Shown here in pieces: positions 2,020 to 21,963 of a DNA stretch of 64,000 nucleotides. The notes beneath the pieces are model-generated. The model ran no database searches. It was not told where the DNA came from and saw nothing but the letters and a program-made list of their open reading frames with translations. The translations under genes were made by a program, and so were the position numbers. This stretch comes from Rhizobiaceae bacterium (GTDB taxonomy: Bacteria > Pseudomonadota > Alphaproteobacteria > Rhizobiales > Rhizobiaceae), in the NCBI GenBank assembly GCA_045047085.1, contig JASFYT010000034.1, forward strand, positions 2,098-66,097, given 5' to 3'. Each line of letters begins with the position of its first letter. Position 1 is the stretch's first letter.

Positions 2020-2643
2020 TCATCGGCCAGTTACGGCGTTAAGAACTTCACCAATGCGTTGCTGTGCAATTTTCAACGGCTCTGTTTCTCCCGCCATGGA
2101 AATTCGGCCCGTGGCCCCCATCATCTGAACATCTATGAGCGTAATTTCAGGGGCGGCTTTTTCTGCTTCGTTTGCCGCCATTGCAGCAAACAAAGCCGGA
2201 GCCATTTCATAGAGGAGAAGTGACTGGCCGGGCAGGATCATCGAAGCCTCACGCATGCGGTTATAAATAACGGCATGCTGATCTGAAATATTTTCGATGA
2301 TATCGGTAAACAATATTTCGGGCTTCAACTGATCTTCCGCCTTGCAATTGATCCCCTCAAGGATGGCCTCCCCTGCCCCCATGACCACTTCACGCGCGCT
2401 CGAATGTAATTCAAGCAAGCCGAAATGGCGCTCCGTAAACAAAATCCCCGGCTCAAGATCCGGCGCTGCTTTCAACGCCAGATCAGCAATTCGGTGAATT
2501 GCAAGCGCAGGTGCAACTTCGATAATGAGGCTGTGATCACCAACAAATGGCGGATACCCCCGGGCACGGGTCGGAGTCGCCATATACGCCGCAAACTGCG
2601 GTTGTAGATCCTCAATGGGCAGATAAACACGTAACTCTGTCAT
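2020..2643 (-). CDS. BMC shell protein, tandem-domain (BMC-T-like), paralog 1
   Basis: 207 aa with two internal BMC-like repeats (EVAPALAIHRIADLALKAAPD and EMAPALFAAMAANEAEKAAPE). It is a paralog of 3711..4331 and lies in an operon with BMC-H and BMC-P genes. Confidence 0.8.
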   Translation of the reverse strand: MTELRVYLPIEDLQPQFAAYMATPTRARGYPPFVGDHSLIIEVAPALAIHRIADLALKAAPDLEPGILFTERHFGLLELHSSAREVVMGAGEAILEGINCKAEDQLKPEILFTDIIENISDQHAVIYNRMREASMILPGQSLLLYEMAPALFAAMAANEAEKAAPEITLIDVQMMGATGRISMAGETEPLKIAQQRIGEVLNAVTGR

Positions 2644-2695
2644 CTATTTTTCAATCATTCTCACATAACCGCCACGCGGCCAGCACAACAGCGTT

Positions 2696-2986
2696 TTATT
2701 TGCCAGTACCAGTATTAAAGTTAAAATGGCTGGCCAGATCAGCGTGAGGACGTGGGATCACATGAACTGATATTAACTCGCCAATTTGACCCGCTGTGTC
2801 AGCGCCCGCTTCGGTAGCAGCCTTAACAGCACCCACATCTCCCTGAATAACCACAGATACCAGACCTGCGCCCACTTCTTCACGAGACACAATTTTCACA
2901 TTGGCAGCTTTCACCATTGCATCTGCCGCAGCCAGCGCAGCCACAAAACCTTTGGTCTCAATCATTCCTATTGCTTCATTTGACAT
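2696..2986 (-). CDS. BMC shell protein, single-domain hexamer type (BMC-H, PduA/EutM-like)
   Basis: [30 protein letters not shown]... is the canonical Pfam00936-type N-terminus. The ATG at 2986 is preceded by AAGGAG. The TTG-extended ORF reaching 3004 is not needed. Confidence 0.9.
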
Positions 2987-3009
2987 TTGTTTTCTCCTTT
3001 TCAAAAAAA

Positions 3010-3252
3010 TTAATTATCATCGTCGATCGATCCGATGATCAAGGCGTCAATCGGTGCCTTGACGTTATCAAAATAGGCCGCCGCTACAGACCCTTGCACA
3101 ACCAGCACATCTTCTCCCTCACCGCAGCCAAGCGGATCGAGGGCGATAATTTCTGTGCCGTTTTCCAGCTCCACATTCAGCAATGCCCCTTGTGGCAGAG
3201 TCTCTATACGCTTTGTTGACCAAAGCCTGCCGGTAACACGTCCTCTCACCAT
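3010..3252 (-). CDS. BMC vertex protein (BMC-P, EutN/CcmL family)
   Basis: 80 aa, [29 protein letters not shown]...LVVQGSVAA...[11 protein letters not shown], the typical EutN/CcmL pattern. Confidence 0.85.
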
Positions 3253-3707
3253 TATCTCATCCTTTCAATTATTATTTTACGCAGCCTGAGGCGATCTCGC
3301 GCCAAGGGAGTAAACCGGACTGCCCGCCCAAGTCGCACAATTTTCGTCTCCTGCGGCAGTGCCTCAACTTGCCTCTCGGACAAAAATCCATTTTCAATCT
3401 GCACCACACCACCCTGCGACGCCGGTACAGGCATATCCGCCTTCAGCCCGGAAGTGCGGTCAGAAGTGGTCTTCAACCGAAAAACATGATCGCCCCTAGC
3501 GATCTTGTCTCTCATAGGCTTGTTCTGGCTGAGCTTCAAAATTTGCTGAACCAGCGATTGCAAATCATCGTCGTTGTTTATCGACACAAACTCCTCGTCT
3601 ACCGATAGTTTTGAAACAAGAGCGCGCACTTTGCGTTCTTCGGCAATGAGAGACAGTTCTTCCGCCAGTATTTCACGAATGATGGATCTGACCGCATCAG
3701 TTGTCAT
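3252..3707 (-). CDS. BMC-operon protein of unknown function with an N-terminal encapsulation-peptide-like amphipathic helix
   Basis: 151 aa, embedded between the BMC-T and BMC-P genes with stop/start overlap. Its N-terminus AVRSIIREILAEELSLI resembles the C-terminus of the adjacent aldehyde dehydrogenase. No catalytic family recognised. Confidence 0.6.
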   Translation of the reverse strand: MTTDAVRSIIREILAEELSLIAEERKVRALVSKLSVDEEFVSINNDDDLQSLVQQILKLSQNKPMRDKIARGDHVFRLKTTSDRTSGLKADMPVPASQGGVVQIENGFLSERQVEALPQETKIVRLGRAVRFTPLARDRLRLRKIIIERMR

Positions 3708-3710
3708 GGC

Positions 3711-4331
3711 TTAGGCGTCTCCATGACCATCGAAACCACCCAGTGCATATTCTGCCGCTTCTTGCGCAGCGCGAATTTCAGACTCACCGCCCGACAGATA
3801 GACGCGCCCGTTTGCACCAATCATACGATAGTCAACCACTTTGATATTGGCTGCCTTTTCCGCTTCATTTGCCGCAAGGATGGCATAAGATGCGGGTTGC
3901 ATTTCGAGCAGGTATAAGGACTCACCACCCAGCACCATCGATCCCAATTTATTCCGGTTGATCAAAAATGCATGTTGGTTATCTATACGTGTCACGATTT
4001 TCGAACCCACTATCTTGGGTTGCATTGCGTCATTGGACTCCGCGCCAAGCGCATCCAGAACCGCCTGCGCGGATTCCCGCACCGCTGATGTATCGCGGGA
4101 ATGGAATTCCAGATAACCAAATTGGCGCTCGACAACCAGAATACCGGCACGAACATCCGCATGCTTCAGCGCAATATTGGTCAGGTTTTCAATATCAAGA
4201 CCAGGAGCAATTTCGATGATTTGTGCTGCAACATTGGCGCGAGGCAAGGACCCCCTCATCCAACTGGCCATGTAAGACATGGTTTGCGGTTGTAACTGGT
4301 CGATGAATATGAATGATCGTAAATTTGCCAT
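3711..4331 (-). CDS. BMC shell protein, tandem-domain (BMC-T-like), paralog 2
   Basis: 206 aa with internal repeats EIAPGLDIENLTNIALKHADV and EMQPASYAILAANEAEKAANI. It shares the N-terminal DQLQPQ motif with 2020..2643. Confidence 0.8.
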   Translation of the reverse strand: MANLRSFIFIDQLQPQTMSYMASWMRGSLPRANVAAQIIEIAPGLDIENLTNIALKHADVRAGILVVERQFGYLEFHSRDTSAVRESAQAVLDALGAESNDAMQPKIVGSKIVTRIDNQHAFLINRNKLGSMVLGGESLYLLEMQPASYAILAANEAEKAANIKVVDYRMIGANGRVYLSGGESEIRAAQEAAEYALGGFDGHGDA

Positions 4332-4334
4332 GGG

Positions 4335-5927
4335 TCAGCCTTTCAACGCAGAGCGTAATTCTTCAGCGATGATGCGACGGATGGTTTCGCGCAATTTGTG
4401 GTCTTGCTGAGAAATAGGGCGAGCTGTAGGTTCGGGGGCCTTGAGGTTTGCACTTCTTCCTCCTGATTGTCCGGGCACACCATCAGCCGGAGCTTTTAGC
4501 AATTTTCCCCGGTGGGTCAAACTGGCCATCTGGCGCCCATCAAGGTTTCCCGCCACATCCTTGTTCCATGCAATCTTGGTCCAGTTCACCAGGTGCTGCG
4601 GACCAACATTTTCACCGACAGATGAACGGCCAAAATAACCGGTGCCTATTGTGAAAGTTGGAGCGAGATTGGTTGCAAAACCAGCAGCTCCCTGACTGCA
4701 TGGCGCGTTGACAATTACACGGTACACTTCAACACTGGCGGCGTAATCCATGATGATTTGATCATCGTTTGCATGAATGGCTGCAGAGTGCCCTGCCCCG
4801 GTATAGCGCAGTAAAGCGCGCGCTTGTTTCATCACTTGCGAATGGCTATTCGCCACATAATATCCCAGTACCGGACAAAGTTTTTCGCGCGAAAGCACTT
4901 CGCCTACCCCGATCTTGTCGATTGGCGTGATGAGAACTTTGGTTTTACGAGGCACTTTGAACCCGGCCTGTTCGGCAATCCACGACGCATCGCGCCCCAA
5001 AGCTTCCACATTAAATCCACGCTGGTGAAACAAATAATTGCGCAGCAACTCGACTTCGTTTGGTTTGCAGATATGACATCCGGCGCGATCCAGTTCGCGC
5101 ATCAATTGGGCCGAAATCTCTTTCAAAGTGATCAACACCGACTCGTTGGTACACAAAACCGAATTGTCAAATGACTTGCTATCGGAGATGAACTTCGCTG
5201 CCTGCTTCAGATCAGCACTCGTATCCACAAAAACCGGAGCATTGCCGGGGCCGACCCCAATCGCCGGGTTGGAGGAAGAATAGGCTGCCCGCACCATGGC
5301 GCTGCCGCCCGTGGCAAGAATAACATTTGTCTTGTCCGACTTCATGAATTCGTCGATCAGCAAAAGGTTGGGATGTTCAATGACCTGAATGACAGCTTCC
5401 GGCGCACCTGCTGCCTCAGCAGCTTTTATCAATGTATTGACCGCATCAACAGAGCATTCACGCGCTGCGGGATGAGGGCTGACTACAATTGCGTTACGGG
5501 TCATCAGGGCGCACAACACCTTGAAATAAATTGTAGCAATCGGATTGGTAGATGGTGCAAGCGCAAAAACCACACCTGCGGGTCTCGGTACTTCGATGAT
5601 GTTGGTTTCTGCATCAAATCTCGGGTTCACAAAATCCCGATCCCGGTAATGTTCAACCAGCGGTAATGCGGAAAGTTCGTTTTTCAGCGTCTTATGTTCG
5701 GCAACGCCAAATCCGGTTTCTTTGACCGCCCAGTCGCCATACTTTCCAGCATTTTCATGGGCAGCTTTTGCCACTGCATCTGCGATGGCGAGTGTTGATT
5801 CTCGATCATAACGTTGAAAGACCTGAGATGCCCATCTCGCACGTTCCAGCGTCATATCGGCGGCAGCCCGTAACGCTGCGTCTGTGGCACTTATATCGAC
5901 GAGTTTTGCAATCGACAGATCCATCAC
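4335..5927 (-). CDS. CoA-acylating aldehyde dehydrogenase (EutE/PduP-like) with a C-terminal extension ending in an encapsulation-peptide-like helix
   Basis: 530 aa with the SFDNSVLCTNES catalytic-Cys block and an ATGGSAMV NAD-binding region. A roughly 60-aa Pro/Gly-rich tail ends in KLRETIRRIIAEELRSALKG. Confidence 0.85.
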   Translation of the reverse strand: MMDLSIAKLVDISATDAALRAAADMTLERARWASQVFQRYDRESTLAIADAVAKAAHENAGKYGDWAVKETGFGVAEHKTLKNELSALPLVEHYRDRDFVNPRFDAETNIIEVPRPAGVVFALAPSTNPIATIYFKVLCALMTRNAIVVSPHPAARECSVDAVNTLIKAAEAAGAPEAVIQVIEHPNLLLIDEFMKSDKTNVILATGGSAMVRAAYSSSNPAIGVGPGNAPVFVDTSADLKQAAKFISDSKSFDNSVLCTNESVLITLKEISAQLMRELDRAGCHICKPNEVELLRNYLFHQRGFNVEALGRDASWIAEQAGFKVPRKTKVLITPIDKIGVGEVLSREKLCPVLGYYVANSHSQVMKQARALLRYTGAGHSAAIHANDDQIIMDYAASVEVYRVIVNAPCSQGAAGFATNLAPTFTIGTGYFGRSSVGENVGPQHLVNWTKIAWNKDVAGNLDGRQMASLTHRGKLLKAPADGVPGQSGGRSANLKAPEPTARPISQQDHKLRETIRRIIAEELRSALKG

Positions 5928-7201
5928 CGTACCTTCTTCCGGTTGGAACCCATAATTTCCTCGGACGCCAGACCGATTGCAATTTCCACACGGGTCAGCA
6001 AATCTTCACACAGGCTTTGTGTCATCAATATACCCGGTTTGAATTGCAAAACACTTGGATCAAGGGTTGAAAATATCGCCCATACACCATGCTCGTAAAG
6101 GTGCCTCATTACCGGCTTCGCGCCCTCAGGGTCATTGAATTCCAGCCCTAAAATAACACCATTTTGCCGAATGCCCGTGAAGAAATCCGGGTAGAGCGCC
6201 TGAATATCGTCGAGCCCCGCACGGATAAAGTCAGAAACATAACGCACCATCGTGGCAACTTCCGGCCTCTGAGTTATTTCAAGCACTTTCAGCGCGACAA
6301 TGCAGCCAAGTTCTGCTCCCCCTGTGGTGGACATGTGAGCAAAGCCATCCTGCTTCAACCACTGCCCTGCCCGCTCGTTAACAACACAACACGAAATTGG
6401 ATACATGCCGCCGGTAATGCCCTTACCGATCACCATGATATCTGGTGTAACGCCGTATTTGGTAATGCCCCAAAGTTCGCCTGTACGCATTAATCCGGTC
6501 TGCACTTCATCAGCTATATAGAGCGCATCAAACCGCTCGCACAGGCTTTTTACGGCAGGCAGATAGCCCTCATTTGGCATTGGAAAACCATAGGTGGCCG
6601 GGATCGTTTCCATGATGACAGCGGCAACATCCCTTCCTCTCAACGCATCTTCCATTGCATCAAGATCATTGAATGGCACTTGAATAAATTCCCCAAGCGT
6701 ATCTTCTGACAAAAACATTTCGGAAAATCGCTCATCGCCTGTTTTAACAGCCAGACCGGAGTGTCCGTGATAAGCTTTGATAATCGAAACAATTTTGCGT
6801 TTTTGGGTTGCGTGCCGCGCAGATTTTATTGCCAGCTCCACGGCCTCAGCACCACCTGCCCCATAAATGGTATATTGCAGACCATCGGGTGTGCAGTCAG
6901 CCAAGGCCTCAGCCAAGGCCGTTCGGGCCAAAGCTGGAAAATGATGATTGCCCATATCAAAACGTTTTGCACCGGCATTCAATACTTCGATCAGTTCTGC
7001 ATTGCGATGGCCCAGATTATAGGTGCCGCCGTTGAGATGCACATCAATCAGGCGCTTGCCATCTAAATCATAGAGGCAATATCCTTCACGGCGATCAATC
7101 ACCAGATCGACGCCAACATCCTGCCAGAACTGGGTTTTATCCGGGTTCCAGAAAGCTTTCGACTGCTCCAGGAATTCCAGTTTTTCTGCACTCACAAGCA
7201 A
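5924..7201 (-). CDS. class-III aminotransferase-fold PLP enzyme; probable amino-alcohol-phosphate phospho-lyase
   Basis: 425 aa with DEVQTGLMRTGELWG and DIMVIGKGITGG (PLP-Lys) blocks. A 4-nt ATGA overlap links it to the AldDH gene. Pairing with an APH-type kinase is the known kinase/phospho-lyase arrangement. The lyase assignment, as opposed to a transaminase, is inference. Confidence 0.75.
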   Translation of the reverse strand: MLVSAEKLEFLEQSKAFWNPDKTQFWQDVGVDLVIDRREGYCLYDLDGKRLIDVHLNGGTYNLGHRNAELIEVLNAGAKRFDMGNHHFPALARTALAEALADCTPDGLQYTIYGAGGAEAVELAIKSARHATQKRKIVSIIKAYHGHSGLAVKTGDERFSEMFLSEDTLGEFIQVPFNDLDAMEDALRGRDVAAVIMETIPATYGFPMPNEGYLPAVKSLCERFDALYIADEVQTGLMRTGELWGITKYGVTPDIMVIGKGITGGMYPISCCVVNERAGQWLKQDGFAHMSTTGGAELGCIVALKVLEITQRPEVATMVRYVSDFIRAGLDDIQALYPDFFTGIRQNGVILGLEFNDPEGAKPVMRHLYEHGVWAIFSTLDPSVLQFKPGILMTQSLCEDLLTRVEIAIGLASEEIMGSNRKKVR

Positions 7202-7246
7202 ACACCTCTCAACATCCTGACAGGGTGCCTGAGTAATCGGCTAAGT

Positions 7247-7336
7247 ACTTGACACATAGAGATATAAACTTGACAGAGAACGCGCGCGCAACAAGCTATT
7301 TGCACAATGTCAAATGTCACCGCTTCATTGTCAAGT
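7247..7336. promoter_or_regulatory. four ACTTGACA-type boxes in the divergent BMC/kinase intergenic region (candidate operator and -35 elements)
   Basis: ACTTGACA lies at 7247..7254 and 7268..7275 on the plus strand. ACTTGACA at 7336..7329 and ATTTGACA at 7315..7308 lie on the minus strand. Both pairs are spaced exactly 21 bp and are arranged as a mirror image. Confidence 0.5.
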
Positions 7337-7395
7337 GATGTGGGGCATAACCATTTACCGTCGAGACATAAACAAGATGGTCGGATACGGAATAT

Positions 7396-8409
7396 ATGTC
7401 AGAATTTGATGATTTGTCCCATGAGGAGCAATTAATTTGCTTGAAGCATCTCGCGGATGCGGCCCTTGCCCATTTTCACCTGCCCATGGGCGTCACTTCT
7501 TATCTAATCAACCTATCAGAAAATGCCACCTACAAGGTTGAAGATCCTCGCACCTCCAAGTGCTGGGCCATGCGAGTCCATCGGGAAGGCTATCACACAA
7601 AAGACGTGATCTACTCCGAGTTGGCTTGGGCAAAGGCCCTGCGAGAAAGTGGTGCAGCGATTACACCAATCGCGCTGCCGGGCCTCGATGGAGATATCAT
7701 TCAGACAGTATCTCATGAAAGCCTGCCGAATTCGCGGCATGTGGTACTTTTTGAATGGGAAACTGGCGTTGAACCTTCTGAGGAAGACGATGACCTGCGG
7801 GCACCTTTCGAGGTACTTGGTGAAACCACAGCACACATGCATAAACACGTAAAATCGTGGAAATTACCAGAAAATTTTAGACGTCCAGTCTGGGATTTTG
7901 AAACTTCACTGGGATCGACCCCTCTTTGGGGGCGATGGCGCGATGGCATGGGCCTCGATAAAAATCGCATGCAGCTGTTCCATGAAACGGTGAACTTGAT
8001 AGAGCAACGGCTCGAAAAATTCGGAAAAGCACAAGAACGGTTCGGCTTGATTCATTGTGATATGCGTCTAGCCAATCTGCTGATTGACGGTGATGTAACC
8101 AAAGTAATTGATTTCGATGATTGTGGCTTTAGCTGGCTGATGTACGATTGTGCTACCACAGTATCCTTTTTCGAGAACAAACCTGAAGTCCCGGACTTAC
8201 TAAAATCATGGGTGAAAGGTTACCGCAAAGTCATCGACCTTCCAATGGAGGATGAAGCGGAAATTCCCACTTTTGTCATGCTGCGCAGATTGTTGCTTGT
8301 GGCCTGGATCGGCTCCCATTCAGAGACAGATCTTGCCCAGTCGATGGGGGTGACCTACAGCAAGGAAACAGATGCCCTTTGTCGCAATTATATTGCTGAT
8401 TTTAGTTGA
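7396..8409 (+). CDS. aminoglycoside-phosphotransferase-fold kinase (probable amino-alcohol kinase)
   Basis: 337 aa with the Brenner motif HCDMRLANLL and the metal-binding IDFDDCG. It is divergently transcribed from the BMC operon. Confidence 0.8.
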   Translation: MSEFDDLSHEEQLICLKHLADAALAHFHLPMGVTSYLINLSENATYKVEDPRTSKCWAMRVHREGYHTKDVIYSELAWAKALRESGAAITPIALPGLDGDIIQTVSHESLPNSRHVVLFEWETGVEPSEEDDDLRAPFEVLGETTAHMHKHVKSWKLPENFRRPVWDFETSLGSTPLWGRWRDGMGLDKNRMQLFHETVNLIEQRLEKFGKAQERFGLIHCDMRLANLLIDGDVTKVIDFDDCGFSWLMYDCATTVSFFENKPEVPDLLKSWVKGYRKVIDLPMEDEAEIPTFVMLRRLLLVAWIGSHSETDLAQSMGVTYSKETDALCRNYIADFS

Positions 8410-8557: not shown

Positions 8558-9628
8558 ATGAATATTGCCACCCACAGTCTTGAACGTCCAACTGGCAGCG
8601 ATAACGCGACCAGTGCTAATCCTGCAGTGCTTGCTGCTGCGGCCACTGGTATGGTCGAGTTCATTGAGAAAATGGGGGGTGATGTTGATCGCATATTTGG
8701 TCATGCAGGCATCTCGCCGGATATGGCTGGGGAACCCACTTTAAAGTTGAGCCTTTCTTCGTTTTGCCTGTTATTTGAAGAGGCTTCACGCCTGTCACAA
8801 CATGATAATTTCGGCCTATGGTTTGGTAATCAGTTTTCTCCTCAAAAACTTGGATTGTGGGGATATGCAACAATTTCTTCGTCGACCGTCGGGATGGCAT
8901 TGGAAAATTTGGTTGGCCTGTTTCGCTATCAACAGGAATCGTCGGTGATGAGCCTTTCCGAAGACAAGAATGGATTAATGCGGCTGGAATACCAAATTCA
9001 AGCTGTCGATATTGTCGAGCGCCGACAGGATGCCGAGCTCTCTCTTGGCATGTTTTTCAATGTCATTCGTGAGGGATGCGGCGCGAGCTGGGTGCCTGAA
9101 GAAGTACATTTTGAGCATGCAAAACCGGAAAACTGGAAAGATCACGAAACAGCGTTTTCGGCGCCGGTGTATTTTTCACAGCCGAAAAATGCTCTGTTGT
9201 TCAAGCCGGATATCATGAAACTCACCATGCCCGGGCGCGATCTTTCGCTCATGACAATTATGCAAACCTGCCTTAAAACTGTTGGCGATGAAAATGCTCA
9301 ACCAGTGTCGCTGATTGGTAGAATCCAAAATACCATTCGCACACAATTGCCGGATGGATACCCCTCTTTGGAGCAGGTTGCGCTAACCCTGAAGCTATCG
9401 CCCTCTGTCATCCAGCGCGAATTAGCTTTTGAAGGGCTGACCTATAAGGGACTGATCGAGACCACGCGGAATGCTCTGGCACTGATGTATATCCGGCAGC
9501 GTCATTTGCCTTTTTCCGAGATCGCATTTCTTCTGGGCTATTCAGAACTCAGCGCCTTCTCAAGGGCAGTGCGTCGCTGGACCGGATTTTCGCCACGAAA
9601 ATACCGGGCGCAATTGGCCAATTCCTAG
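8558..9628 (+). CDS. AraC-family transcriptional regulator
   Basis: 356 aa with the C-terminal double HTH ...FSEIAFLLGYSELSAFSRAVRRWTGFSPRKYR and a long N-terminal ligand-domain-like region. Confidence 0.85.
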   Translation: MNIATHSLERPTGSDNATSANPAVLAAAATGMVEFIEKMGGDVDRIFGHAGISPDMAGEPTLKLSLSSFCLLFEEASRLSQHDNFGLWFGNQFSPQKLGLWGYATISSSTVGMALENLVGLFRYQQESSVMSLSEDKNGLMRLEYQIQAVDIVERRQDAELSLGMFFNVIREGCGASWVPEEVHFEHAKPENWKDHETAFSAPVYFSQPKNALLFKPDIMKLTMPGRDLSLMTIMQTCLKTVGDENAQPVSLIGRIQNTIRTQLPDGYPSLEQVALTLKLSPSVIQRELAFEGLTYKGLIETTRNALALMYIRQRHLPFSEIAFLLGYSELSAFSRAVRRWTGFSPRKYRAQLANS

Positions 9629-9810: not shown

Positions 9811-10575
9811 CTACGCCAACGCTTCCAGAGACTCGGGCAAAATCTGTCCGCCATCAACTATGATTGTCTGACCGGTGATATAGTTGGCTTCCTTGGATGC
9901 GAGAAACAAGGCGGCGTTGCCGATATCTTCAACTGAACCAATTTTTTTCAACGGTATGGATGCAGCCATCGTTGCAATGTAATCATCCCCCAACCCCTCA
10001 AGGCCTTCGGTGAAAATATTGCCCGGCAAAACGGCATTCATTGTAATCGCGTCCTTGGCCAATTCAATACAGGCGGTACGCATAAATCCGAGTTGGCCTG
10101 ATTTGCTCGCCCCATAATGGGACCAACCGGGAAAGCCCGTTTCAGGTCCGGTAATGGAAGAAGTCAGAATCACCCGTCCCTGATCAGAATTCTTTAAATG
10201 AGGAAGGCAGGCTTTAACCGATAAAAATGTGCCTTTCAAATTAGTACTCATCACAAGATCCCATTCGTCCGGATCCATGTCCTCGATATTGGTTTGCGGG
10301 TAAATGCCAGCATTGGCACACAAAATATCAAGCCCGCCATTGCGATCAACAGCCGCCTGAGCCATGGCCTGTGATTGCTCCCAATTAGAAATATCTGCCG
10401 AAAACCCCGAGGCGCCATTACCAATTTCCTTAGCACAGGCCTCTGCTTCTGAAAGGGTTCGCGATACCACCAGAATTTTTGCGCCTTGTGCAGCAAATAC
10501 TTTTGCTATCCCTTTGCCTATGCCTTTGCTCGCGCCGGTAACAATAACCGATCGGCCTGCAATTGATGTCAACAT
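9811..10575 (-). CDS. SDR-family oxidoreductase (FabG-like)
   Basis: 254 aa with VTGASKGIGKG (TGxxxGxG) and YGASKSG (YxxxK). Confidence 0.85.
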   Translation of the reverse strand: MLTSIAGRSVIVTGASKGIGKGIAKVFAAQGAKILVVSRTLSEAEACAKEIGNGASGFSADISNWEQSQAMAQAAVDRNGGLDILCANAGIYPQTNIEDMDPDEWDLVMSTNLKGTFLSVKACLPHLKNSDQGRVILTSSITGPETGFPGWSHYGASKSGQLGFMRTACIELAKDAITMNAVLPGNIFTEGLEGLGDDYIATMAASIPLKKIGSVEDIGNAALFLASKEANYITGQTIIVDGGQILPESLEALA

Positions 10576-10609
10576 GTGATTTCCTTCTTCATTTATTCAT
10601 ATGTGAGAT

Positions 10610-11434
10610 TTATAGCCGCTCCATCCGTCGCCTCCGGGCACCAATAACCAACCAAACAAGATAGGCAATCAACAGGAATATCGCAGCACTAAATAAAGTA
10701 AGCGCACCCAGGGTCGGCACCATTGGCGTGTAGCCTGACACCATTTTTGCATAGAGCCATTCAGGGATGGTTGAATCTGCACCGGTGGTGAACAGTGACA
10801 AGGGAAAATTCCCCCAAGACAACAGAAACGCGAAAATTGCCCCGGAAATAATTCCGGGCGATAAAATTGGCAAGGTCACTTCTGTAAGAACCTGCCACCT
10901 GGTTGCACCCAGATCGAACGCCGCTTCTTCAAGTGCCGGATCAAAACTATAAACCTGTATCGACATGATCAATATGACAATGGGGGTAATCCAGACCAGA
11001 TGAGCAAAGACGGCAGTGTGCCAACTTGTTGTAATGCCAAGAGCGGAAAACCACAGCAGCATCGCCAGTCCGAGAACCGCTTGAGGGAAGAATATCGGTA
11101 ATAAAATCAGCTTTTGATAAAGCTTGCGGCCCTTCCAGTCATAGCGCGCAAACGCCAATGCTCCCATAAACGCCAGTACGACGGAAATGACCGTTACCAG
11201 TGCCGCAACGGATAATGAGGTCCACAATAATTCCCGCACCGACAATGAGGAAAAGGCTTTTTGGTACCATTTATCAGTCCAACTCTGAATCGGGAATTTA
11301 AAATATCGTTGTTTGGAGAACGATGCCAGCAGCACCGCAACCATTGGCACATATAAGAAGAAGATAACGATCGATGTCCAAAGGATAATTGCCCGGCGCG
11401 TCATTTTTTGAGAAGTCGAACGCATATCTATCAT
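10610..11434 (-). CDS. ABC transporter permease (PotC-like)
   Basis: Multi-pass membrane protein with the EAA loop EEAAFDLGATRWQVLTEVTLP. The ATG at 11434 overlaps the upstream stop (ATGA). The longer track ORF is an upstream read-through. Confidence 0.8.
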   Translation of the reverse strand: MIDMRSTSQKMTRRAIILWTSIVIFFLYVPMVAVLLASFSKQRYFKFPIQSWTDKWYQKAFSSLSVRELLWTSLSVAALVTVISVVLAFMGALAFARYDWKGRKLYQKLILLPIFFPQAVLGLAMLLWFSALGITTSWHTAVFAHLVWITPIVILIMSIQVYSFDPALEEAAFDLGATRWQVLTEVTLPILSPGIISGAIFAFLLSWGNFPLSLFTTGADSTIPEWLYAKMVSGYTPMVPTLGALTLFSAAIFLLIAYLVWLVIGARRRRMERL

Positions 11435-12306
11435 CGCCTCCCGATAACCTTGTCGAGATCGACACGCCTGAACAGAATGAAAACAATGACGCCCGAAAGA
11501 GCTATCAGCAACACTGACAACGCCGAACCCTTGGGCCAATTCTGGGCAAAGGTGAAAGCTGACTCAATATCATCTGCAATCATCACAATGGCTTGCCCGC
11601 CAAGGATTTTCGCCTCAGCCAAAGACCCCAGAACAAGTACAAATGTTAAAATGCCACCGATCATAAACCCTGGCATAGACAAGGGTAACTCAATCTCACG
11701 AAATATCTGCCAACGCGTGGCACCCAAATCGGAGGCTGCTTCCTTCAACGTGTCCGGAACCATTGATATTCCGATGACCAATGGGAACAACGTAAAAGGC
11801 AGATAGACATATACCAGCCCCAACACAATGGCTGGCACAGTGAAGAGCAAACCTGAGGCTGTTGTGCCAAAAAGGGTTTGCAGCGAACCATCCAGAATTC
11901 CGTTTTTTAACAATATGAGAACCCAGCCAAACAGACGGATATTTTCAGAAATGAGTATAGGCACCGCAATGAGCGCGGTTACCAGATTGGCCCATTTGTT
12001 AAACAATTTGGCCATGCCATAAGCGATTGGGTAGCAAATGATAAACAATAATATTACGGTCGAGAGCGCGAGCACAAGTGACCAGAAAAACGAAATGTAA
12101 TAGCTGCTGGTGACAATCGAAACATAATTTTCAACCGTGGGCGTTTGCATCAATGAAAACGATTTCGACGGCATGAAGCTGTAGCCGACCACCATGAGAA
12201 GCGGACCGGCAAAGCCAATTAGCAAAAACAGCGACGCTGGCAAAGCGGTAAGAACGCCTGCCTGCCTGAACCATTTCGATTTACTACCTTGTGAACTGTC
12301 CGCCAT
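11431..12306 (-). CDS. ABC transporter permease (PotB-like)
   Basis: 291 aa, hydrophobic, with the EAA loop KEAASDLGATRWQIFREIELP. Confidence 0.85.
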   Translation of the reverse strand: MADSSQGSKSKWFRQAGVLTALPASLFLLIGFAGPLLMVVGYSFMPSKSFSLMQTPTVENYVSIVTSSYYISFFWSLVLALSTVILLFIICYPIAYGMAKLFNKWANLVTALIAVPILISENIRLFGWVLILLKNGILDGSLQTLFGTTASGLLFTVPAIVLGLVYVYLPFTLFPLVIGISMVPDTLKEAASDLGATRWQIFREIELPLSMPGFMIGGILTFVLVLGSLAEAKILGGQAIVMIADDIESAFTFAQNWPKGSALSVLLIALSGVIVFILFRRVDLDKVIGRR

Positions 12307-12310
12307 TATT

Positions 12311-13387
12311 TTACTCGCTCACCAAAATACAATCTTCCGGTTGCCAACCGATTTCAACCGTATCACCAACCTGTCCCTCATAAGGTTCGTCCTGAAGGCG
12401 CTCCACCAGCCAATGCTCTTCAAATTGTTCAATTCTAATTTGGTATTGCACCCGCGACCCCAATGCGTATTCGTTAAAGGCCACACCTTTGATTATGTTA
12501 TCCAGCCTCGCTGCAGATTTTCCGATTTTCATCATTTCCGGACGTATTATCAAAAACCCGTCGTTGAAATCTGAAAGATCGTCCACAACTTTGAATACAT
12601 CGCCAGAACCAATAACCCGGACCTGGTCTTTTCCAGCTTTTTCAACCTGGAGCGTATTCACCTCCCCCATAAACTGGGCAACGAATTTATTTTTCGGATG
12701 GTTGTATATTTCAAAAGGCGTTCCGACCTGAACAATGCCGCCATCACGCATAATGGCAATACGGTCAGACATCACCATCGCCTCTTCCAAAGAATGGGTG
12801 ATGTAGACGAACGTCTTGCCGGTCTCGCGATGAATATCTTTGAGTTCCTTTTCCAGCACCTTGCGCAGCCTGAAATCCAATGCCGACAAAGGTTCGTCAA
12901 AGAACAGGATTTCCGGATCAAAAGCCAGTGCCCGTGCAAGCGCGATGCGTTGACGTTCACCGCCCGAACACTGGGTAACACTGCGGTCATAATAGTCTAG
13001 CGGGAGGCGCAATTGCTCCATTAATTGACGGACCCGCGCTCGCCTGCTGGTTTTGTCCTGGCCGGCAATTTTCATTGAAAATTCAATATTCTCGCCAACG
13101 GATTTATGTGGAAATAACGCTAGGGATTGAAAAACCATGCAAGTCGGGCGCTTATTGGCTGGCAGGCCATTCATCACCTTGCTTTTCAGCCGCATCTCGC
13201 CCTCGGAAGGCTGATCCATGCCGACCAACATGCGTATCATTGTCGTTTTACCGGACCCAGAAGGGCCTACGAGCGTAAAGAATTCGCCTTCTAAAATCTT
13301 TAAATTAACATCATCAACTGCTACAAAATCACCAAAGCGCTTGGTGATCCCGCTGAGCTCGAGAAACGGCTCGCTTACTTCATTCAT
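12311..13387 (-). CDS. ABC transporter ATP-binding protein (PotA-like)
   Basis: Walker A GPSGSGKTT, signature CSGGERQR, Walker B ILFFDEP. The ATG at 13387 is preceded by GGAGG. Confidence 0.9.
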   Translation of the reverse strand: MNEVSEPFLELSGITKRFGDFVAVDDVNLKILEGEFFTLVGPSGSGKTTMIRMLVGMDQPSEGEMRLKSKVMNGLPANKRPTCMVFQSLALFPHKSVGENIEFSMKIAGQDKTSRRARVRQLMEQLRLPLDYYDRSVTQCSGGERQRIALARALAFDPEILFFDEPLSALDFRLRKVLEKELKDIHRETGKTFVYITHSLEEAMVMSDRIAIMRDGGIVQVGTPFEIYNHPKNKFVAQFMGEVNTLQVEKAGKDQVRVIGSGDVFKVVDDLSDFNDGFLIIRPEMMKIGKSAARLDNIIKGVAFNEYALGSRVQYQIRIEQFEEHWLVERLQDEPYEGQVGDTVEIGWQPEDCILVSE

Positions 13388-13530
13388 GAGGCCTCCGCGC
13401 CCGTCATACTTAGAGCACAATCTGAAAAGTGATAACCGGGTTTCAGATTGCGCTTTAAAATAAAATGCCCTAGGTCAGGAACTCTAATGAGCCCTGACCC
13501 AAGTAAACTTAAAATTGAAATCCAAAAAAC

Positions 13531-14688
13531 TTAGGTTTTTCGCTCACGTTTTGCGGCAGAATACAAATCGTACATTTCCGCGTAATCTGGGTTGATATCG
13601 TAATCAACAGAATTGCCCATTTCCTGCTCAATGGAATCCCATTGCACCGCATCCAATTCTTCTTTCGAGAAGGTGCTCAAAACATCCTGAGAACCCATTT
13701 GAGTTACAGGATTGTATGTTCCTTCGGCAAATGCAACTTTCTTGGAAACGTTAGGGCGCTGAACATACTCAAGAAAATCCTCAGCCAGACCAGATGGGTC
13801 AGGGTTGTTAACGACAGACGTCAACTCAATCCACACGATGCCGCCCTTGCCATCCATTGGGCCAGAATTTGGCGTAATGCCACGAATGTTTTTTGCACCA
13901 TCAAGACGTGCTGGCGATGCCGTATAGGTGCCACCAGTGAAATACGCATCGATTTCGCCATTGATCAAGGCAAGGTTCATTGCAACAAGATCGTCGGTCA
14001 AATTTTTTGCACCATTGAAAATTTGTTTGGCAACTTCACCAAATTTGGTGATTTCCGCTTTGGTATGTTTTTTGAACGGATGAATGTCGGCCGCGATGCA
14101 CATATGATAAATATTCCAGTTATCATACGTCAAAATGCCGTAACGCCCCTTCATTGCAGGATCAAGGAATAACTTGAAGCCCTGATCTTCCGCCAATTTT
14201 CTACTAATTTTATCCGTATTGACCACAAAAGAAAATGGGCCGAAACGCTGTGTCATGCCCAGCAAATCTTTACCGGAAGCATCCATCGCCCATTTATAGG
14301 GTGGCTTAAATGCTGGCATCATCTTGTCGTAATATGGCTCAAAACGTTCACGGGAAATAGGCTTGATCAAACCTTCGGGGAACATCTGCTCGCGTGCCCA
14401 TGGATTGTTTAGATTGATGATATCCCAAACCTTGGTTTCACCAGCGCGCAATCTGTTCACCGCATCCGGATCAGAGGTCAGCCCCTCTGCGCGAACCTTG
14501 GCTCCGAACTCTTTGCGGAACGGGTCAAGCACTTCATCGGAATTATACCCTTCCCAGCAATAAATGTTTAATTCCTTGTCACGCGCAGCATTAGCGATGT
14601 TCGGAAATGCACCGATTGACGCGGCAGCAGCGGCATATACGCCTGTCTGCTGCAAAAAATTACGTCGTGAAAGTGGGTATTTCAGCAT
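13531..14688 (-). CDS. periplasmic solute-binding protein (PotD/PotF-like) with a twin-arginine signal
   Basis: MLKYPLSRRNFLQQTGVYAAAAASIGAFPNIANA signal, followed by a polyamine-binding-like fold (LNIYCWEGY...). The ATG at 14688 has an RBS. Confidence 0.8.
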   Translation of the reverse strand: MLKYPLSRRNFLQQTGVYAAAAASIGAFPNIANAARDKELNIYCWEGYNSDEVLDPFRKEFGAKVRAEGLTSDPDAVNRLRAGETKVWDIINLNNPWAREQMFPEGLIKPISRERFEPYYDKMMPAFKPPYKWAMDASGKDLLGMTQRFGPFSFVVNTDKISRKLAEDQGFKLFLDPAMKGRYGILTYDNWNIYHMCIAADIHPFKKHTKAEITKFGEVAKQIFNGAKNLTDDLVAMNLALINGEIDAYFTGGTYTASPARLDGAKNIRGITPNSGPMDGKGGIVWIELTSVVNNPDPSGLAEDFLEYVQRPNVSKKVAFAEGTYNPVTQMGSQDVLSTFSKEELDAVQWDSIEQEMGNSVDYDINPDYAEMYDLYSAAKRERKT

Positions 14689-14940
14689 TATCTCTCTCCC
14701 TGTGGGCAAATCATCCCTGGAGGTGATTTCAAACAATCAACACTCCATTTGGCTTGCTATCCTGATTCAATTTGTATTTTACATCCGTGCCAACAAAAAA
14801 ATAAAGTATCAGCAAGACGCAATATCAATCTCCATCCAAGATAAGATTAATATATTCACCGCCGTTTCGTCTTGACATCAGACGCACTGGATTTGACACT
14901 TCCATACCGCTTCGGGCCAATTGGATATTCAAATAAATAT

Positions 14941-15636: not shown

Positions 15637-15654
15637 CAGGAGATTCCGTTTCGG

Positions 15655-16083
15655 TTAGTATCTGGTGGTGAACAAACCGCGTTGTTCATAAACCTCGGCG
15701 GCCTCTTCAATGAACTCAGCCATCCGTTCTGCCTGATAGGTAGTCCTTAATTTCTCAGATATCTCCAACAATACAGATTTGTCTTTTGCCCGGCCGGGTC
15801 TCAAAAACTCATAAATTTCCATCAAATAATCTTGCGGAATATTCGTAAGCTCAGAGGCACGATTAAAATTATCTCCAAGTTTTGGTCGATTGCAATCACG
15901 TGCTATATCCGCCTGCATCTCCAAAGCTTGACTGGTGATCCGGAAATCATCCATGACTACATCCCCACGCTCAACAGCGGCAAGATCAAGTTCACCGAGC
16001 TGTTTTCCTCGCTGGCCCAGAACAAGATCGGGGCGATTTTCCGCCAATGGGTAATCCTTGGCACCAAGCCTATTATTGTCCAA
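15655..16083 (-). CDS. pduE: B12-dependent diol/glycerol dehydratase small (gamma) subunit
   Basis: 142 aa. DYPLAENRPDLV...DDFRITSQALEMQADIA...LGDNFNRASELTNIPQDYLMEIYEFLRPGR matches the PduE/DhaB3 pattern. Confidence 0.85.
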   Translation of the reverse strand: MDNNRLGAKDYPLAENRPDLVLGQRGKQLGELDLAAVERGDVVMDDFRITSQALEMQADIARDCNRPKLGDNFNRASELTNIPQDYLMEIYEFLRPGRAKDKSVLLEISEKLRTTYQAERMAEFIEEAAEVYEQRGLFTTRY

Positions 16084-21921: not shown

Positions 21922-21963
21922 ATGAGAACTCGGAGCGGCACTGAGGCGAGACAGGTCCAATCG

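What the first reader, a model, noticed from the sequence alone, without database searches (positions are those of the whole stretch)
2020..8409. Complete RMM/amino-alcohol-type bacterial microcompartment locus in an apparently Gram-negative host
Seen in the sequence: one minus-strand operon encodes BMC-T, BMC-H, BMC-P, an unknown protein, a second BMC-T, an acylating AldDH, and a class-III aminotransferase-fold enzyme, with overlapping stop/start codons. An APH-fold kinase is transcribed divergently.

Established knowledge: an APH-type kinase paired with a class-III-aminotransferase-fold phospho-lyase is the known route amino alcohol -> O-phospho-amino alcohol -> aldehyde + NH3 + Pi. That pair together with an acylating AldDH and this shell set defines the Rhodococcus/Mycobacterium (RMM, aminoacetone/1-amino-2-propanol) metabolosome class, which is described mainly from Actinobacteria.

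Inference: the surrounding genes look proteobacterial, given the TAT-signal periplasmic binding proteins, TRAP transporter, and rhizobial-type erythritol loci. The accessory set also differs from the actinobacterial one: an AraC regulator and a PotABCD-like ABC importer are present, and no phosphotransacylase or alcohol dehydrogenase sits in the operon. This may therefore be a horizontally transferred or undescribed variant of this BMC class, and its substrate is unproven (1-amino-2-propanol, ethanolamine, or another amino alcohol).
Basis: partly seen in the sequence, partly recalled or inferred. Interest (0 to 1): 0.85.

Follow-up and report, generated by a model that had tools for sequence, protein, structure and literature searches.

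The report
Known-type amino-alcohol microcompartment locus (RMM2/AAUM2)
This is a real, intact gene cluster for a protein-shelled organelle that most likely breaks down small amino alcohols. This organelle type is already catalogued in many Gram-negative bacteria, so the locus is another ordinary example, not a new variant.

Summary
Window 2020-7201 (minus strand) encodes BMC-T, BMC-H, BMC-P, a conserved unknown, a second BMC-T, an acylating AldDH and a class-III aminotransferase-fold enzyme. An APH kinase is transcribed divergently.

All four shell proteins match the four Mycobacterium smegmatis RMM shell structures one-to-one. The kinase matches the solved (S)-1-amino-2-propanol kinase (4e-80).

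The RMM assignment is right, but the novelty claim is not.
- The 2021 BMC catalog lists RMM1/AAUM1 in Actinobacteria and Proteobacteria. It lists RMM2/AAUM2 in varied Proteobacteria, including a Hyphomicrobiales genus.
- My scan found at least 475 related loci in species-representative genomes.
- At least 25 of the best 80 carry the same ABC importer and SDR upstream of the core, and 26 have an AraC hit.
- The "missing" dehydrogenase is present at 9811-10575. It is an ortholog of the RMM 1-amino-2-propanol dehydrogenase (8e-85).

Modest additions:
- A TGTCAA-N15-TGTCAA operator precedes all three transcription units and recurs across proteobacterial loci.
- Related amphipathic helices, like encapsulation peptides, sit on the AldDH C-terminus and on the unknown 151-aa protein.
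- A fused B12 diol dehydratase lies nearby, as in many related loci.
- Mobile-element debris flanks the block.

Phospho-lyase activity and the substrate remain inferred.

The parts
2020..2643 (-). BMC-T (double-stacking, CcmP-like), ortholog of M. smegmatis MSM0271. Last gene of the operon.
   Evidence: NF053796 2.5e-54. PDB 5suh MSM0271 3.9e-83. Conserved at the end of the core module in all full-length related loci.
2696..2986 (-). BMC-H hexamer shell protein, ortholog of MSM0272. The ORF extends to a TTG at 3004, but the ATG at 2986 is the likely start.
   Evidence: PF00936 1.8e-27. PDB 5l38 MSM0272 8.3e-39.
3010..3252 (-). BMC-P pentamer vertex protein, ortholog of MSM0273.
   Evidence: PF03319 8.9e-20. 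PDB 5l37 MSM0273 4e-23, the only solved match.
3252..3707 (-). Conserved 151-aa protein of unknown fold. It has an N-terminal amphipathic helix resembling an encapsulation peptide (AVRSIIREILAEELSLI) and an invariant C-terminal TPLARDRLR motif. It is probably encapsulated cargo or a scaffold.
   Evidence: No Pfam or NCBIfam family. A gene occupies this slot in both phyla. Alignment. 783 representative clusters at E<=0.001; the 150 listed are 96-217 aa and most match end to end. AF2 pLDDT 72.6. No Foldseek PDB match better than E=0.28.
3711..4331 (-). BMC-T (double-stacking, CcmP-like), ortholog of MSM0275.
   Evidence: NF053796 2e-64. PDB 5l39 MSM0275 2.7e-87.
4335..5927 (-). CoA-acylating aldehyde dehydrogenase. 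A roughly 75-aa C-terminal extension consists of a Pro/Gly-rich linker plus an amphipathic helix resembling an encapsulation peptide (LRETIRRIIAEELRSALKG, about 4338-4394).
   Evidence: TIGR02518 2.7e-121 and NF010378 7.3e-130. PDB 5j78 1.7e-91. SFDNSVLCTNES motif present; that it holds the catalytic Cys is my own knowledge. By inspection, nearly all of the 79 related loci end in a similar helix; a strict regex flagged only 12 of 79, and a few tails (L040, L056) are extraction errors.
5924..7201 (-). Class-III aminotransferase-fold PLP enzyme, the inferred signature enzyme (amino-alcohol O-phosphate phospho-lyase). First gene of the BMC operon.
   Evidence: PF00202 4.8e-71. DEVQTG and GKGITGG motifs intact; their PLP role is my own knowledge. 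59-93% identical to the AT of related loci, 65-70% to mycobacterial ones. The nearest solved structures are true transaminases, led by putrescine AT at 1.2e-48.
7249..7275 (-). Predicted operator (TGTCAA-N15-TGTCAA read on the minus strand), 48 nt upstream of the AT/BMC operon.
   Evidence: Perfect match. Conserved in L001, L040 and L074. Found at the equivalent position upstream of AT in many proteobacterial loci.
7308..7334 (+). Predicted operator (TGTCAA-N15-TGTCAA read on the plus strand), 62 nt upstream of the kinase ATG.
7396..8409 (+). APH-fold amino-alcohol kinase, ortholog of M. smegmatis (S)-1-amino-2-propanol kinase. Probably co-transcribed with the AraC gene.
   Evidence: PDB 6ef6 4.4e-80 over residues 19-334. 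HCDMRLANLL and IDFDD motifs present; their catalytic role is my own knowledge.
8558..9628 (+). AraC-family regulator of the amine-responsive QhpR type, the predicted activator of the three promoters.
   Evidence: NF049968 QhpR 2.1e-85, 286 bits against a cutoff of 250. PF12625 and PF12833. An AraC hit is present in 26 of the 80 related loci.
9811..10575 (-). Short-chain dehydrogenase, ortholog of the RMM (S)-1-amino-2-propanol dehydrogenase (aminoacetone reductase). Last gene of the importer operon.
   Evidence: PDB 6ci9/6ci8 about 8e-85 and 3pk0 7.5e-86; the next-best hits are about 1e-46. 53-91% identical to the SDR of related loci.
10610..14736 (-). PotABCD-like ABC importer: two permeases (10610-11539, 11431-12306), a TOBE-domain ATPase (12311-13420) and a Tat-signal periplasmic binding protein (13531-14736, likely ATG at 14688).
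   Evidence: Pfam hits. PotD/PotF-like with a TAT signal, and PotA-like. Syntenic upstream of the core in at least 25 related proteobacterial loci.
14872..14898 (-). Third copy of the predicted operator, upstream of the importer-SDR operon.
   Evidence: Perfect match, one of only three in 64 kb. Found at the equivalent position upstream of SBP in L003, L005, L008, L018, L020, L029 and others.
14941..18379 (-). Neighbouring B12-dependent diol/glycerol dehydratase: fused large+medium subunit (16073-18379), small subunit (15655-16083) and an isochorismatase-family hydrolase (14941-15636). The association with the BMC is recurrent, but its role is unproven.
   Evidence: PF02286 3.7e-211 plus PF02288. 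PF02287 1.5e-43. PDB 9vi2 3e-205. The fused dehydratase lies within 10 kb of the core in at least 17 of 80 loci, in both phyla. No operator upstream. No EP-like terminus.
18602..20077 (+). Non-acylating NAD(P) aldehyde dehydrogenase (betaine/aminobutyraldehyde-DH-like), divergent from the dehydratase. Its membership in the system is uncertain.
   Evidence: PF00171 2.2e-176. TIGR01804 2.4e-163, below its cutoff.

Best explanation
This is an RMM2/AAUM2-type catabolic bacterial microcompartment (metabolosome) locus in an alphaproteobacterium, probably a member of Hyphomicrobiales.

Proposed mechanism:
1. A Tat-exported PotD-like binding protein and its ABC transporter import a small amino alcohol or amino ketone.
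2. The SDR interconverts aminoacetone and 1-amino-2-propanol.
3. The APH-fold kinase phosphorylates the hydroxyl group.
4. The PLP-dependent class-III-fold enzyme eliminates phosphate and ammonia to give propionaldehyde (acetaldehyde if the substrate is ethanolamine).
5. The CoA-acylating AldDH converts the aldehyde to the acyl-CoA.

The aldehyde-forming and aldehyde-consuming steps occur inside a shell built from one BMC-H, one BMC-P and two stacking BMC-T proteins. The AldDH and the 151-aa unknown protein are probably recruited through related amphipathic helices resembling encapsulation peptides. An amine-responsive AraC/QhpR-type regulator probably activates three promoters (BMC operon, kinase-regulator operon, importer-SDR operon) through a shared TGTCAA-N15-TGTCAA site.

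Shown by computation here: gene identities, orthology to the M. smegmatis proteins, synteny, helix and operator conservation. Shown elsewhere for the mycobacterial orthologs only: kinase and dehydrogenase activities (cited). Inferred: phospho-lyase chemistry, which proteins are encapsulated, the substrate, and the regulator-operator link.
For: - One-to-one best matches of all four shell proteins to MSM0271/0272/0273/0275.
- Kinase matches PDB 6ef6 at 4.4e-80. SDR matches PDB 6ci9 at 7.7e-85.
- AldDH is of the acylating EutE/AdhE type, and its SFDNSVLC motif is present.
- AT PLP-site motifs are intact.
- The core order AT-AldDH-T-unknown-P-H-T is conserved in the related loci with complete core coverage.
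- In an NJ tree of AT+AldDH+T1+T2, the window falls in an all-proteobacterial clade with its own gene order. That clade is separate from the RMM1-order clade containing Pimelobacter ATCC 6946, which the catalog labels RMM1.
- Similar helices sit on the AldDH C-terminus and the unknown protein's N-terminus in both phyla.
- The operator occurs three times, perfectly, only at the three promoter regions in 64 kb (0.52 expected at <=1 mismatch). It gives 47 matches in 1.38 Mb of related loci. All but about five lie 48-189 nt upstream of the first gene of an RMM transcription unit in proteobacterial loci, correctly oriented. The only actinobacterial match lies inside a coding sequence.
- The regulator passes the curated QhpR cutoff.
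Against: - No characterised phospho-lyase is among the AT's solved relatives at E<=1e-30. Its closest characterised relatives are genuine transaminases such as putrescine AT and ArgD.
- No experiment on this organism or on any proteobacterial RMM2 locus was found in the searchable literature.
- How NAD+ and CoA are recycled is unknown for this BMC type (PMC11626177). No PTAC or Fe-type alcohol dehydrogenase is in the locus.
- Assignment to RMM2 rather than RMM1 rests on gene order, host phylum and my tree. It was not made with the catalog's own HMMs.
- The TTGACA half-site equals the sigma-70 -35 consensus, so part of the repeat signal could be promoter elements rather than a regulator site.
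Confidence: 0.72

Rival explanations
1. A true-transaminase metabolosome. The class-III enzyme deaminates aminoacetone to methylglyoxal, or 1-amino-2-propanol to lactaldehyde. The AldDH then forms pyruvyl-CoA or lactyl-CoA inside the shell, and the APH protein does something else.
For: This was proposed for RMM loci in PMC4207490 and PMC6620236. The AT's nearest characterised relatives are real transaminases.
Against: The kinase is a clear ortholog of the enzyme solved as (S)-1-amino-2-propanol kinase. It shares the divergent promoter region and the operator with the AT operon and travels with the core in both phyla. A transaminase route leaves it without a role. The field now describes the BMC as converting aminoacetone to propionyl-CoA (PMC8156839).
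Confidence: 0.12
2. The same kinase/phospho-lyase chemistry, but the physiological substrate in this marine-type proteobacterium is ethanolamine (or another amino alcohol). The products would be acetaldehyde and acetyl-CoA.
For: The AldDH scores best against acetaldehyde dehydrogenase models. An ethanolamine permease flanks the Rhodococcus jostii pRHL2 locus. The importer is polyamine/amine-type and the regulator is of an amine-responsive type. From my own knowledge, ethanolamine kinase plus phospho-lyase routes were described biochemically in Gram-negative bacteria in the 1970s.
Against: The co-regulated SDR is an ortholog of an aminopropanol/aminoacetone dehydrogenase, which has no obvious role with ethanolamine. 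The kinase ortholog is reported as specific for (S)-1-amino-2-propanol, but I know this only from the paper's title, because the paper was not readable here.
Confidence: 0.1
3. A dual-input propionaldehyde organelle. The adjacent B12 diol dehydratase feeds 1,2-propanediol-derived propionaldehyde into the same shell and AldDH. This is the bifunctional reading of RMM2/PDU2 in Axen 2014.
For: A complete fused dehydratase (large+medium, small) lies 7 kb from the operon. A homologous fused dehydratase lies within 10 kb of the core in at least 17 of 80 loci in both phyla, often with the same isochorismatase-family gene. Axen 2014 raised this possibility.
Against: The dehydratase subunits carry no EP-like helix. 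The shared operator is absent upstream of it. No reactivase gene is in 2020-20077. [quoted passage not shown]
Confidence: 0.06

Closest known systems
RMM2 / AAUM2 locus type of Proteobacteria (Sutter et al. 2021 catalog, PMC8217296; earlier RMM2/PDU2 of Axen et al. 2014, PMC4207490)
   Same: Proteobacterial host. Same enzyme and shell set as RMM1 but a different gene order. A diol dehydratase is sometimes adjacent. Catalogued hosts include Notoacmeibacter (Hyphomicrobiales), Pelagicola, Rhodobacter, Acidiferrobacter and Verminephrobacter. In my tree the window sits in the all-proteobacterial clade with this organisation.
   Different: Nothing substantive was found. In the window and in four of the 80 related loci (L001, L012, L040, L074) the kinase is inverted and divergent from the BMC operon, instead of co-directional.
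RMM1 / AAUM1 microcompartment of Mycobacterium smegmatis and Rhodococcus (shell structures 5suh, 5l38, 5l37, 5l39; kinase 6ef6; dehydrogenase 6ci9)
   Same: One-to-one orthologs of all four shell proteins, the kinase, the SDR, the AldDH, the AT and the small unknown protein. The core order AT-AldDH-T-x-P-H-T is the same. Neither has PTAC or alcohol dehydrogenase.
   Different: Kinase and SDR lie upstream rather than downstream of the shell genes. An AraC/QhpR-type regulator replaces GntR. An ABC importer replaces the GabP/amino-acid permease. The two types form a separate clade in the core-protein tree.
EUT and PDU metabolosomes (ethanolamine / 1,2-propanediol utilisation)
   Same: The same logic of an aldehyde-generating signature enzyme plus an acylating AldDH inside a BMC-H/T/P shell. 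The AldDH is EutE/AdhE-like.
   Different: The signature enzyme is a PLP class-III-fold protein fed by a kinase, not a B12 ammonia-lyase or dehydratase inside the shell. There is no PTAC, no alcohol dehydrogenase, no EutS/PduU and no reactivase. The shell proteins match RMM structures far better than EUT or PDU structures.
Kinase plus class-III-fold phospho-lyase pairs (animal ETNPPL/AGXT2L1 and PHYKPL with their kinases; bacterial amino-alcohol kinase/phospho-lyase routes). Own knowledge, not tested here.
   Same: The proposed chemistry: O-phosphorylation of an amino alcohol, then PLP-dependent elimination of phosphate and ammonia to give an aldehyde.
   Different: The window enzyme is not a close sequence relative of any solved phospho-lyase. 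It also works in a microcompartment context.

Membership tests
RMM/AAUM metabolosome (general) | Shell set of one BMC-H, one BMC-P and two different BMC-T(dp) proteins | tested here: met
   Each protein's best natural solved match is the corresponding M. smegmatis RMM shell protein.
RMM/AAUM metabolosome (general) | Acylating AldDH and a class-III aminotransferase-fold enzyme encoded immediately upstream of the shell genes | tested here: met
   The order AT-AldDH-T-x-P-H-T is identical to actinobacterial loci. Identity to mycobacterial loci is 65-70% (AT) and 46-55% (AldDH).
RMM/AAUM metabolosome (general) | APH-fold kinase orthologous to (S)-1-amino-2-propanol kinase | tested here: met
   PDB 6ef6 4.4e-80 across nearly the full length. 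This tests sequence only; activity was not tested.
RMM/AAUM metabolosome (general) | Short-chain dehydrogenase orthologous to 1-amino-2-propanol dehydrogenase | tested here: met
PDB 6ci9/6ci8 about 8e-85 against about 1e-46 for generic FabG-type SDRs.
RMM/AAUM metabolosome (general) | Phospho-lyase activity of the class-III enzyme and formation of polyhedral bodies | not testable with these tools
   This needs an enzyme assay and electron microscopy. The nearest solved relatives are transaminases.
RMM1/AAUM1 subtype | Kinase and SDR downstream of the second BMC-T, with a GntR regulator and an amino-acid permease | tested here: not met
   In the window the kinase and SDR lie upstream, with AraC and an ABC importer. 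The window falls outside the clade containing the catalog's RMM1 example, Pimelobacter.
RMM2/AAUM2 subtype | Same components as RMM1 in a different gene order; proteobacterial host; occasional adjacent diol dehydratase | tested here: met
   for order, host and clade. for the dehydratase. The catalog's own HMMs (e.g. Tdp_cinnamon_aRMM2) could not be run, so the label rests on these criteria.
EUT / PDU / GRM metabolosomes | Signature enzyme (EutBC, PduCDE with encapsulation peptides, or a glycyl-radical enzyme) within the shell operon, plus PTAC and alcohol dehydrogenase | tested here: not met
   No EutBC, GRE, PTAC or Fe-ADH lies in 2020-20077. The diol dehydratase is in a separate unit without EP-like termini.

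The most novel reading that the evidence does not exclude
The EP-bearing 151-aa protein may be a so-far unrecognised core component of all RMM/AAUM organelles. It belongs to a family of hundreds of representative clusters and has no Pfam family and no detectable fold match. It could, for example, be the scaffold that nucleates the cargo, or part of the unsolved NAD+/CoA recycling. In Proteobacteria the whole system may also be a three-promoter regulon of an amine-sensing AraC/QhpR regulator acting through TGTCAA-N15-TGTCAA sites. Neither point appears in the papers I could read.
Probability: 0.2. Interest if true: 0.45.

Novelty: new member of a known kind. Interest (0 to 1): 0.25.

Why it matters
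For BMC classification it matters little. It adds one more proteobacterial RMM2/AAUM2 locus to a type already catalogued and, by my scan, present in hundreds of species. It has some practical value, because RMM/AAUM is among the least-studied metabolosomes.
- Its signature phospho-lyase has not, to my knowledge, been characterised.
- Its cofactor recycling is an acknowledged open question.
- Its conserved small protein has no assigned function.
- A Gram-negative version with a predicted operator, a defined importer and clear candidate targeting helices offers simple handles for genetics. Those helices could also be used for engineering.

Tried and rejected
- Exact-sequence look-ups of the AT and BMC-T1 products found no source contig. 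The AT query started at an uncertain TTG, so only the BMC-T1 result is informative.
- Megablast of the 18-kb block against plasmids found nothing. Among plasmids only Rhodococcus jostii pRHL2 carries a related BMC-T, so there is no evidence for plasmid carriage.
- ARAGORN and Rfam found no tRNA or other RNA family in the region. The tRNA-like 3' end at 1211-1235 has no second copy in the window, so island ends could not be defined.
- The generic promoter/terminator scan was no better than shuffles.
- Structure prediction of the 151-aa protein gave moderate confidence (pLDDT 72.6, pTM 0.32). No Foldseek PDB match was better than E=0.28, so its fold remains unassigned.
- The profile search gave hundreds of relatives. 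The 150 listed are all short (96-217 aa) and none shows an added domain, so there was no domain-fusion clue.
- The key mycobacterial papers (JBC 2017 and 2018) are not held, so kinase and shell details come only from PDB titles and citing papers.
- I considered testing the conserved carboxylate-binding arginine of transaminases in the AT. I dropped this because the same residue could bind phosphate in a lyase, so the outcome would not discriminate.
- I considered the TTGACA repeats as plain -35 boxes. Under that reading the two -10 regions would fall on a GC-rich stretch (inspection of the sequence). The repeats also come in 21-bp-spaced pairs at three promoters, so a regulator site is more likely.

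Full report
**1. Checking the observation**

On the minus strand, in the order of transcription, the genes are:
- a class-III aminotransferase-fold protein (5924-7201; PF00202, 4.8e-71);
- an acylating aldehyde dehydrogenase (4335-5927; TIGR02518, 2.7e-121);
- a tandem-domain, CcmP-like BMC-T (3711-4331);
- a 151-aa protein with no family (3252-3707);
- a BMC-P (3010-3252; PF03319);
- a BMC-H (2696-3004; PF00936);
- a second BMC-T (2020-2643).

An APH-fold kinase (7396-8409) is divergent. Junctions are tight: AT/AldDH overlap by 4 nt, unknown/BMC-P overlap by 1 nt, and the rest are gaps of 3-52 nt.

**2. Is it RMM-type?**

They do not. Against all PDB sequences, each shell protein's best natural match is the corresponding Mycobacterium smegmatis RMM protein:
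- 2020-2643 with MSM0271 (3.9e-83);
- BMC-H with MSM0272 (8.3e-39);
- BMC-P with MSM0273, its only hit (4e-23);
- 3711-4331 with MSM0275 (2.7e-87).

The kinase matches PDB 6ef6 at 4.4e-80 over nearly its full length. Citing papers name that entry's protein the (S)-1-amino-2-propanol kinase of the mycobacterial microcompartment. The RMM/AAUM assignment is sound.

**3.

The locus continues to the right of 8409.
- 8558-9628 encodes an AraC regulator that passes the curated cutoff of the QhpR model, an amine-dehydrogenase regulator (286 bits against 250).
- 9811-10575 encodes a short-chain dehydrogenase. Its best solved matches are 3pk0 (7.5e-86) and 6ci9/6ci8 (about 8e-85). Generic FabG-type SDRs score only about 1e-46. 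That 6ci9/6ci8 is the M. smegmatis aminopropanol dehydrogenase structure is my own knowledge; the enzyme's characterisation is cited.
- This SDR is the last gene of a minus-strand operon that encodes a PotABCD-like importer. Its binding protein carries a Tat signal.

The statement that no alcohol dehydrogenase is present is therefore wrong as regards the RMM-specific dehydrogenase. It remains true that no PTAC and no Fe-type alcohol dehydrogenase lies in 2020-20077. That gap is a known property of RMM loci and is still unexplained.

**4. Is a Gram-negative RMM locus new?**

It is not.
- The 2021 catalog states that RMM1/AAUM1 (140 loci) occurs in "various Actinobacteria and Proteobacteria".
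- Its BMC-T tree lists RMM2 members from Notoacmeibacter (Hyphomicrobiales), Pelagicola, Rhodobacter, Acidiferrobacter, Verminephrobacter and an unclassified alphaproteobacterium.
- A 2019 comparative study also found the cluster in Proteobacteria.

Of the best 80, 46 are from Alpha- or Gammaproteobacteria and 34 from Actinobacteria. The nearest is a Hyphomicrobiales MAG (L001). It shows about 75% nucleotide identity, 54% (unknown protein) and 78-94% (other genes) protein identity, and the same gene order, including the inverted kinase.

**5. Synteny and subtype**

I ran tblastn with all window proteins against the 80 loci.
- The core AT-AldDH-T-x-P-H-T is invariant.
- In Actinobacteria and a minority of Proteobacteria, the kinase and SDR follow the last BMC-T. 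This is the RMM1 order, seen for example in Pimelobacter ATCC 6946, which the catalog labels RMM1.
- In most Proteobacteria, an SBP-ATPase-permease-permease-SDR unit and the kinase precede the core.
- At least 25 loci carry the importer plus SDR upstream, and 26 have an AraC hit.

A neighbour-joining tree of AT+AldDH+T1+T2 (1287 columns, 67 loci) splits at its midpoint into two groups. One is an all-proteobacterial group with the upstream-kinase organisation. It contains the window, which is sister to L001. The other group has the RMM1 order. I therefore file the locus as RMM2/AAUM2, with the caveat that the catalog's own HMMs could not be run. The only local peculiarity is that the kinase-AraC pair is inverted and divergent from the BMC operon. 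This is shared with L001, L012, L040 and L074.

**6. Mechanism**

The best-supported reading is the pathway described for the mycobacterial system by citing papers, namely aminoacetone to propionyl-CoA:
1. import;
2. SDR interconversion of aminoacetone and 1-amino-2-propanol;
3. O-phosphorylation by the kinase;
4. PLP-dependent elimination of phosphate and ammonia to give propionaldehyde;
5. CoA-acylating oxidation, with steps 4 and 5 inside the shell.

Conserved sequence motifs are intact in the AldDH (SFDNSVLC), the AT (DEVQTG and GKGITGG) and the kinase (HCDMRLANLL, IDFDD). Their assignment to the catalytic Cys, the PLP lysine and the kinase active site is from my own knowledge.

The weak link is the phospho-lyase step. 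The AT's nearest solved and curated relatives are real transaminases, led by putrescine AT at 1.2e-48. No characterised phospho-lyase appears at E<=1e-30. That step is inferred from the kinase partnership, not shown.

**7. Targeting helices**

- The AldDH has a C-terminal extension of about 75 aa. It is a Pro/Gly-rich linker ending in the amphipathic helix LRETIRRIIAEELRSALKG.
- The 151-aa unknown protein begins with a closely similar helix, AVRSIIREILAEELSLI.
- By inspection, nearly all of the 79 related loci, in both phyla, end their AldDH in a similar helix. A strict regex flagged only 12, and a few tails were extraction errors. The unknown protein's N-terminal helix is likewise conserved.
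- A terminal amphipathic helix after a disordered linker is the usual form of BMC encapsulation peptides (general knowledge; compare the abstract of PMC12339742).

The unknown protein also has an invariant C-terminal TPLARDRLR motif. It has no Pfam or NCBIfam family and an AF2 model of moderate confidence. No Foldseek PDB match was better than E=0.28. It has 783 representative clusters at E<=0.001, and the 150 listed are 96-217 aa with no added domains. Its function is unknown, and a scaffold or cargo-adaptor role is my inference.

**8. A predicted operator**

Aligning the divergent kinase/AT intergenic region with L001, L040 and L074 revealed conserved TTGACA-N15-TTGACA pairs on both strands.
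- In the whole 64-kb window this pattern has exactly three matches at <=1 mismatch, all perfect (0.52 expected).
- They lie at 7249-7275, 7308-7334 and 14872-14898.
- Read in the direction of transcription as TGTCAA-N15-TGTCAA, one copy lies 48 nt upstream of the AT operon and one lies 62 nt upstream of the kinase. The third lies 136-184 nt upstream of the importer-SDR operon.

In the 80 related loci (1.38 Mb) there are 47 matches at <=1 mismatch, against about 6 by my rough estimate for uniform base composition. All but about five lie 48-189 nt upstream of SBP, kinase, AT, AldDH or SDR in proteobacterial loci, in the matching orientation. The single actinobacterial match lies inside an AldDH coding sequence. 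The 21-bp register suits an AraC-family dimer (general knowledge).

This ties the importer and SDR to the BMC operon as one predicted regulon. It is a prediction, and the half-site equals the -35 consensus, which is a caveat.

**9. Neighbouring diol dehydratase and flanks**

- 16073-18379 encodes a fused large+medium subunit of a B12 diol/glycerol dehydratase (PF02286, 3.7e-211; PDB 9vi2, 3e-205).
- 15655-16083 encodes the small subunit, and 14941-15636 an isochorismatase-family hydrolase.
- A homologous fused dehydratase lies within 10 kb of the core in at least 17 of 80 loci in both phyla, often with the same hydrolase. This echoes the RMM2/PDU2 of Axen 2014. By this rough count the association (17 of 80) is a little more frequent than the catalog's 4 of 32.
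- It lacks EP-like termini and lacks the operator, so I treat a dual-input organelle as a minor rival.

The roughly 18-kb block is bracketed by mobile-element debris.
- On the left is an AT-rich stretch (40.5% GC) with a tRNA-like 3' end (1211-1235). No intact tRNA gene is present. A pRiA4_ORF3-like pseudogene fragment is also there, with weak support (1.2e-4).
- On the right is a degraded IS3-family element (20776-21921).
- Similarity to L001 could be followed only on the T2 side, where it stops at the end of the last BMC-T.

This is consistent with acquisition as a module, but no recent transfer can be shown. GC content of the block (48-52%) barely differs from the rest of the window.

**10. 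Verdict**

This is a genuine, intact and correctly typed RMM/AAUM microcompartment locus, and an ordinary member of the already catalogued proteobacterial RMM2/AAUM2 type. Three modest leads remain for anyone studying this under-characterised organelle: the operator, the shared targeting helices with the conserved unknown protein, and the recurrent dehydratase neighbour.

Noticed in passing
window 7249-7275, 7308-7334, 14872-14898; related loci L001-L078: A 21-bp-register direct repeat, TGTCAA-N15-TGTCAA, precedes each of the three transcription units of the locus. It recurs upstream of RMM genes in proteobacterial (AraC-linked) loci. Its only match in actinobacterial loci lies inside a coding sequence. 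It is the predicted operator of the QhpR-like AraC regulator.
   Followed up: yes
window 14941-18379: A B12 diol/glycerol dehydratase with naturally fused large+medium subunits, plus a small subunit and an isochorismatase-family hydrolase, but no reactivase gene nearby. The same fused dehydratase, often with the hydrolase, lies next to RMM cores in at least 17 of 80 loci in both Actinobacteria and Proteobacteria.
   Followed up: partly
window 3252-3707 and homologs (P0001-P0186): A large stand-alone family (783 representative clusters at E<=0.001) of roughly 150-aa proteins. They have an N-terminal helix resembling an encapsulation peptide and an invariant TPLARDRLR motif. There is no Pfam or NCBIfam model and no detectable fold match.
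   Followed up: partly
window 1140-1240: A poly-A tract is followed by a sequence that looks like the 3' half of a tRNA and ends in GGTTCGAATCCCTTCCTCTCCGCCA. By eye it may be Ser-GCU. ARAGORN finds no intact tRNA anywhere in the window, and the fragment has no second copy. It may be a relic attachment site at the edge of the BMC block.
   Followed up: partly
window 1440-1860: A reading frame interrupted by stop codons resembles a pRiA4b ORF-3-like protein (PF07929, E=1.2e-4, below the gathering score). It lies in a 40% GC stretch and is probably a decayed mobile-element gene.
   Followed up: partly
window 20776-22100: A degraded IS3-family insertion sequence. orfA (HTH_Tnp_1) is followed by an orfB split by an in-frame stop at 21490-21492 (HTH_21 / rve). 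A second truncated orfA-like fragment follows.
   Followed up: partly
window 171-1034: A minus-strand gene for a TIGR04255-family protein (2.3e-34) of unknown function, in the AT-rich left flank.
   Followed up: no
L081 (Rhodococcus jostii RHA1 plasmid pRHL2, NC_008270.1 400544-407474): The plasmid-borne RMM locus contains an exact tandem duplication of the BMC-T / hypothetical / BMC-P / BMC-H block, with identical protein accessions appearing twice. The aminotransferase gene sits between the two copies.
   Followed up: no
window 22400-63500: The rest of the window is dense in polyol and sugar catabolism genes. These include two SorC-type regulators, three FGGY kinases, two GlpD-like oxidases, TIM, RpiB, dihydroxyacetone kinase with an Fe-ADH, two sugar ABC importers and a TRAP transporter.
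   Followed up: partly
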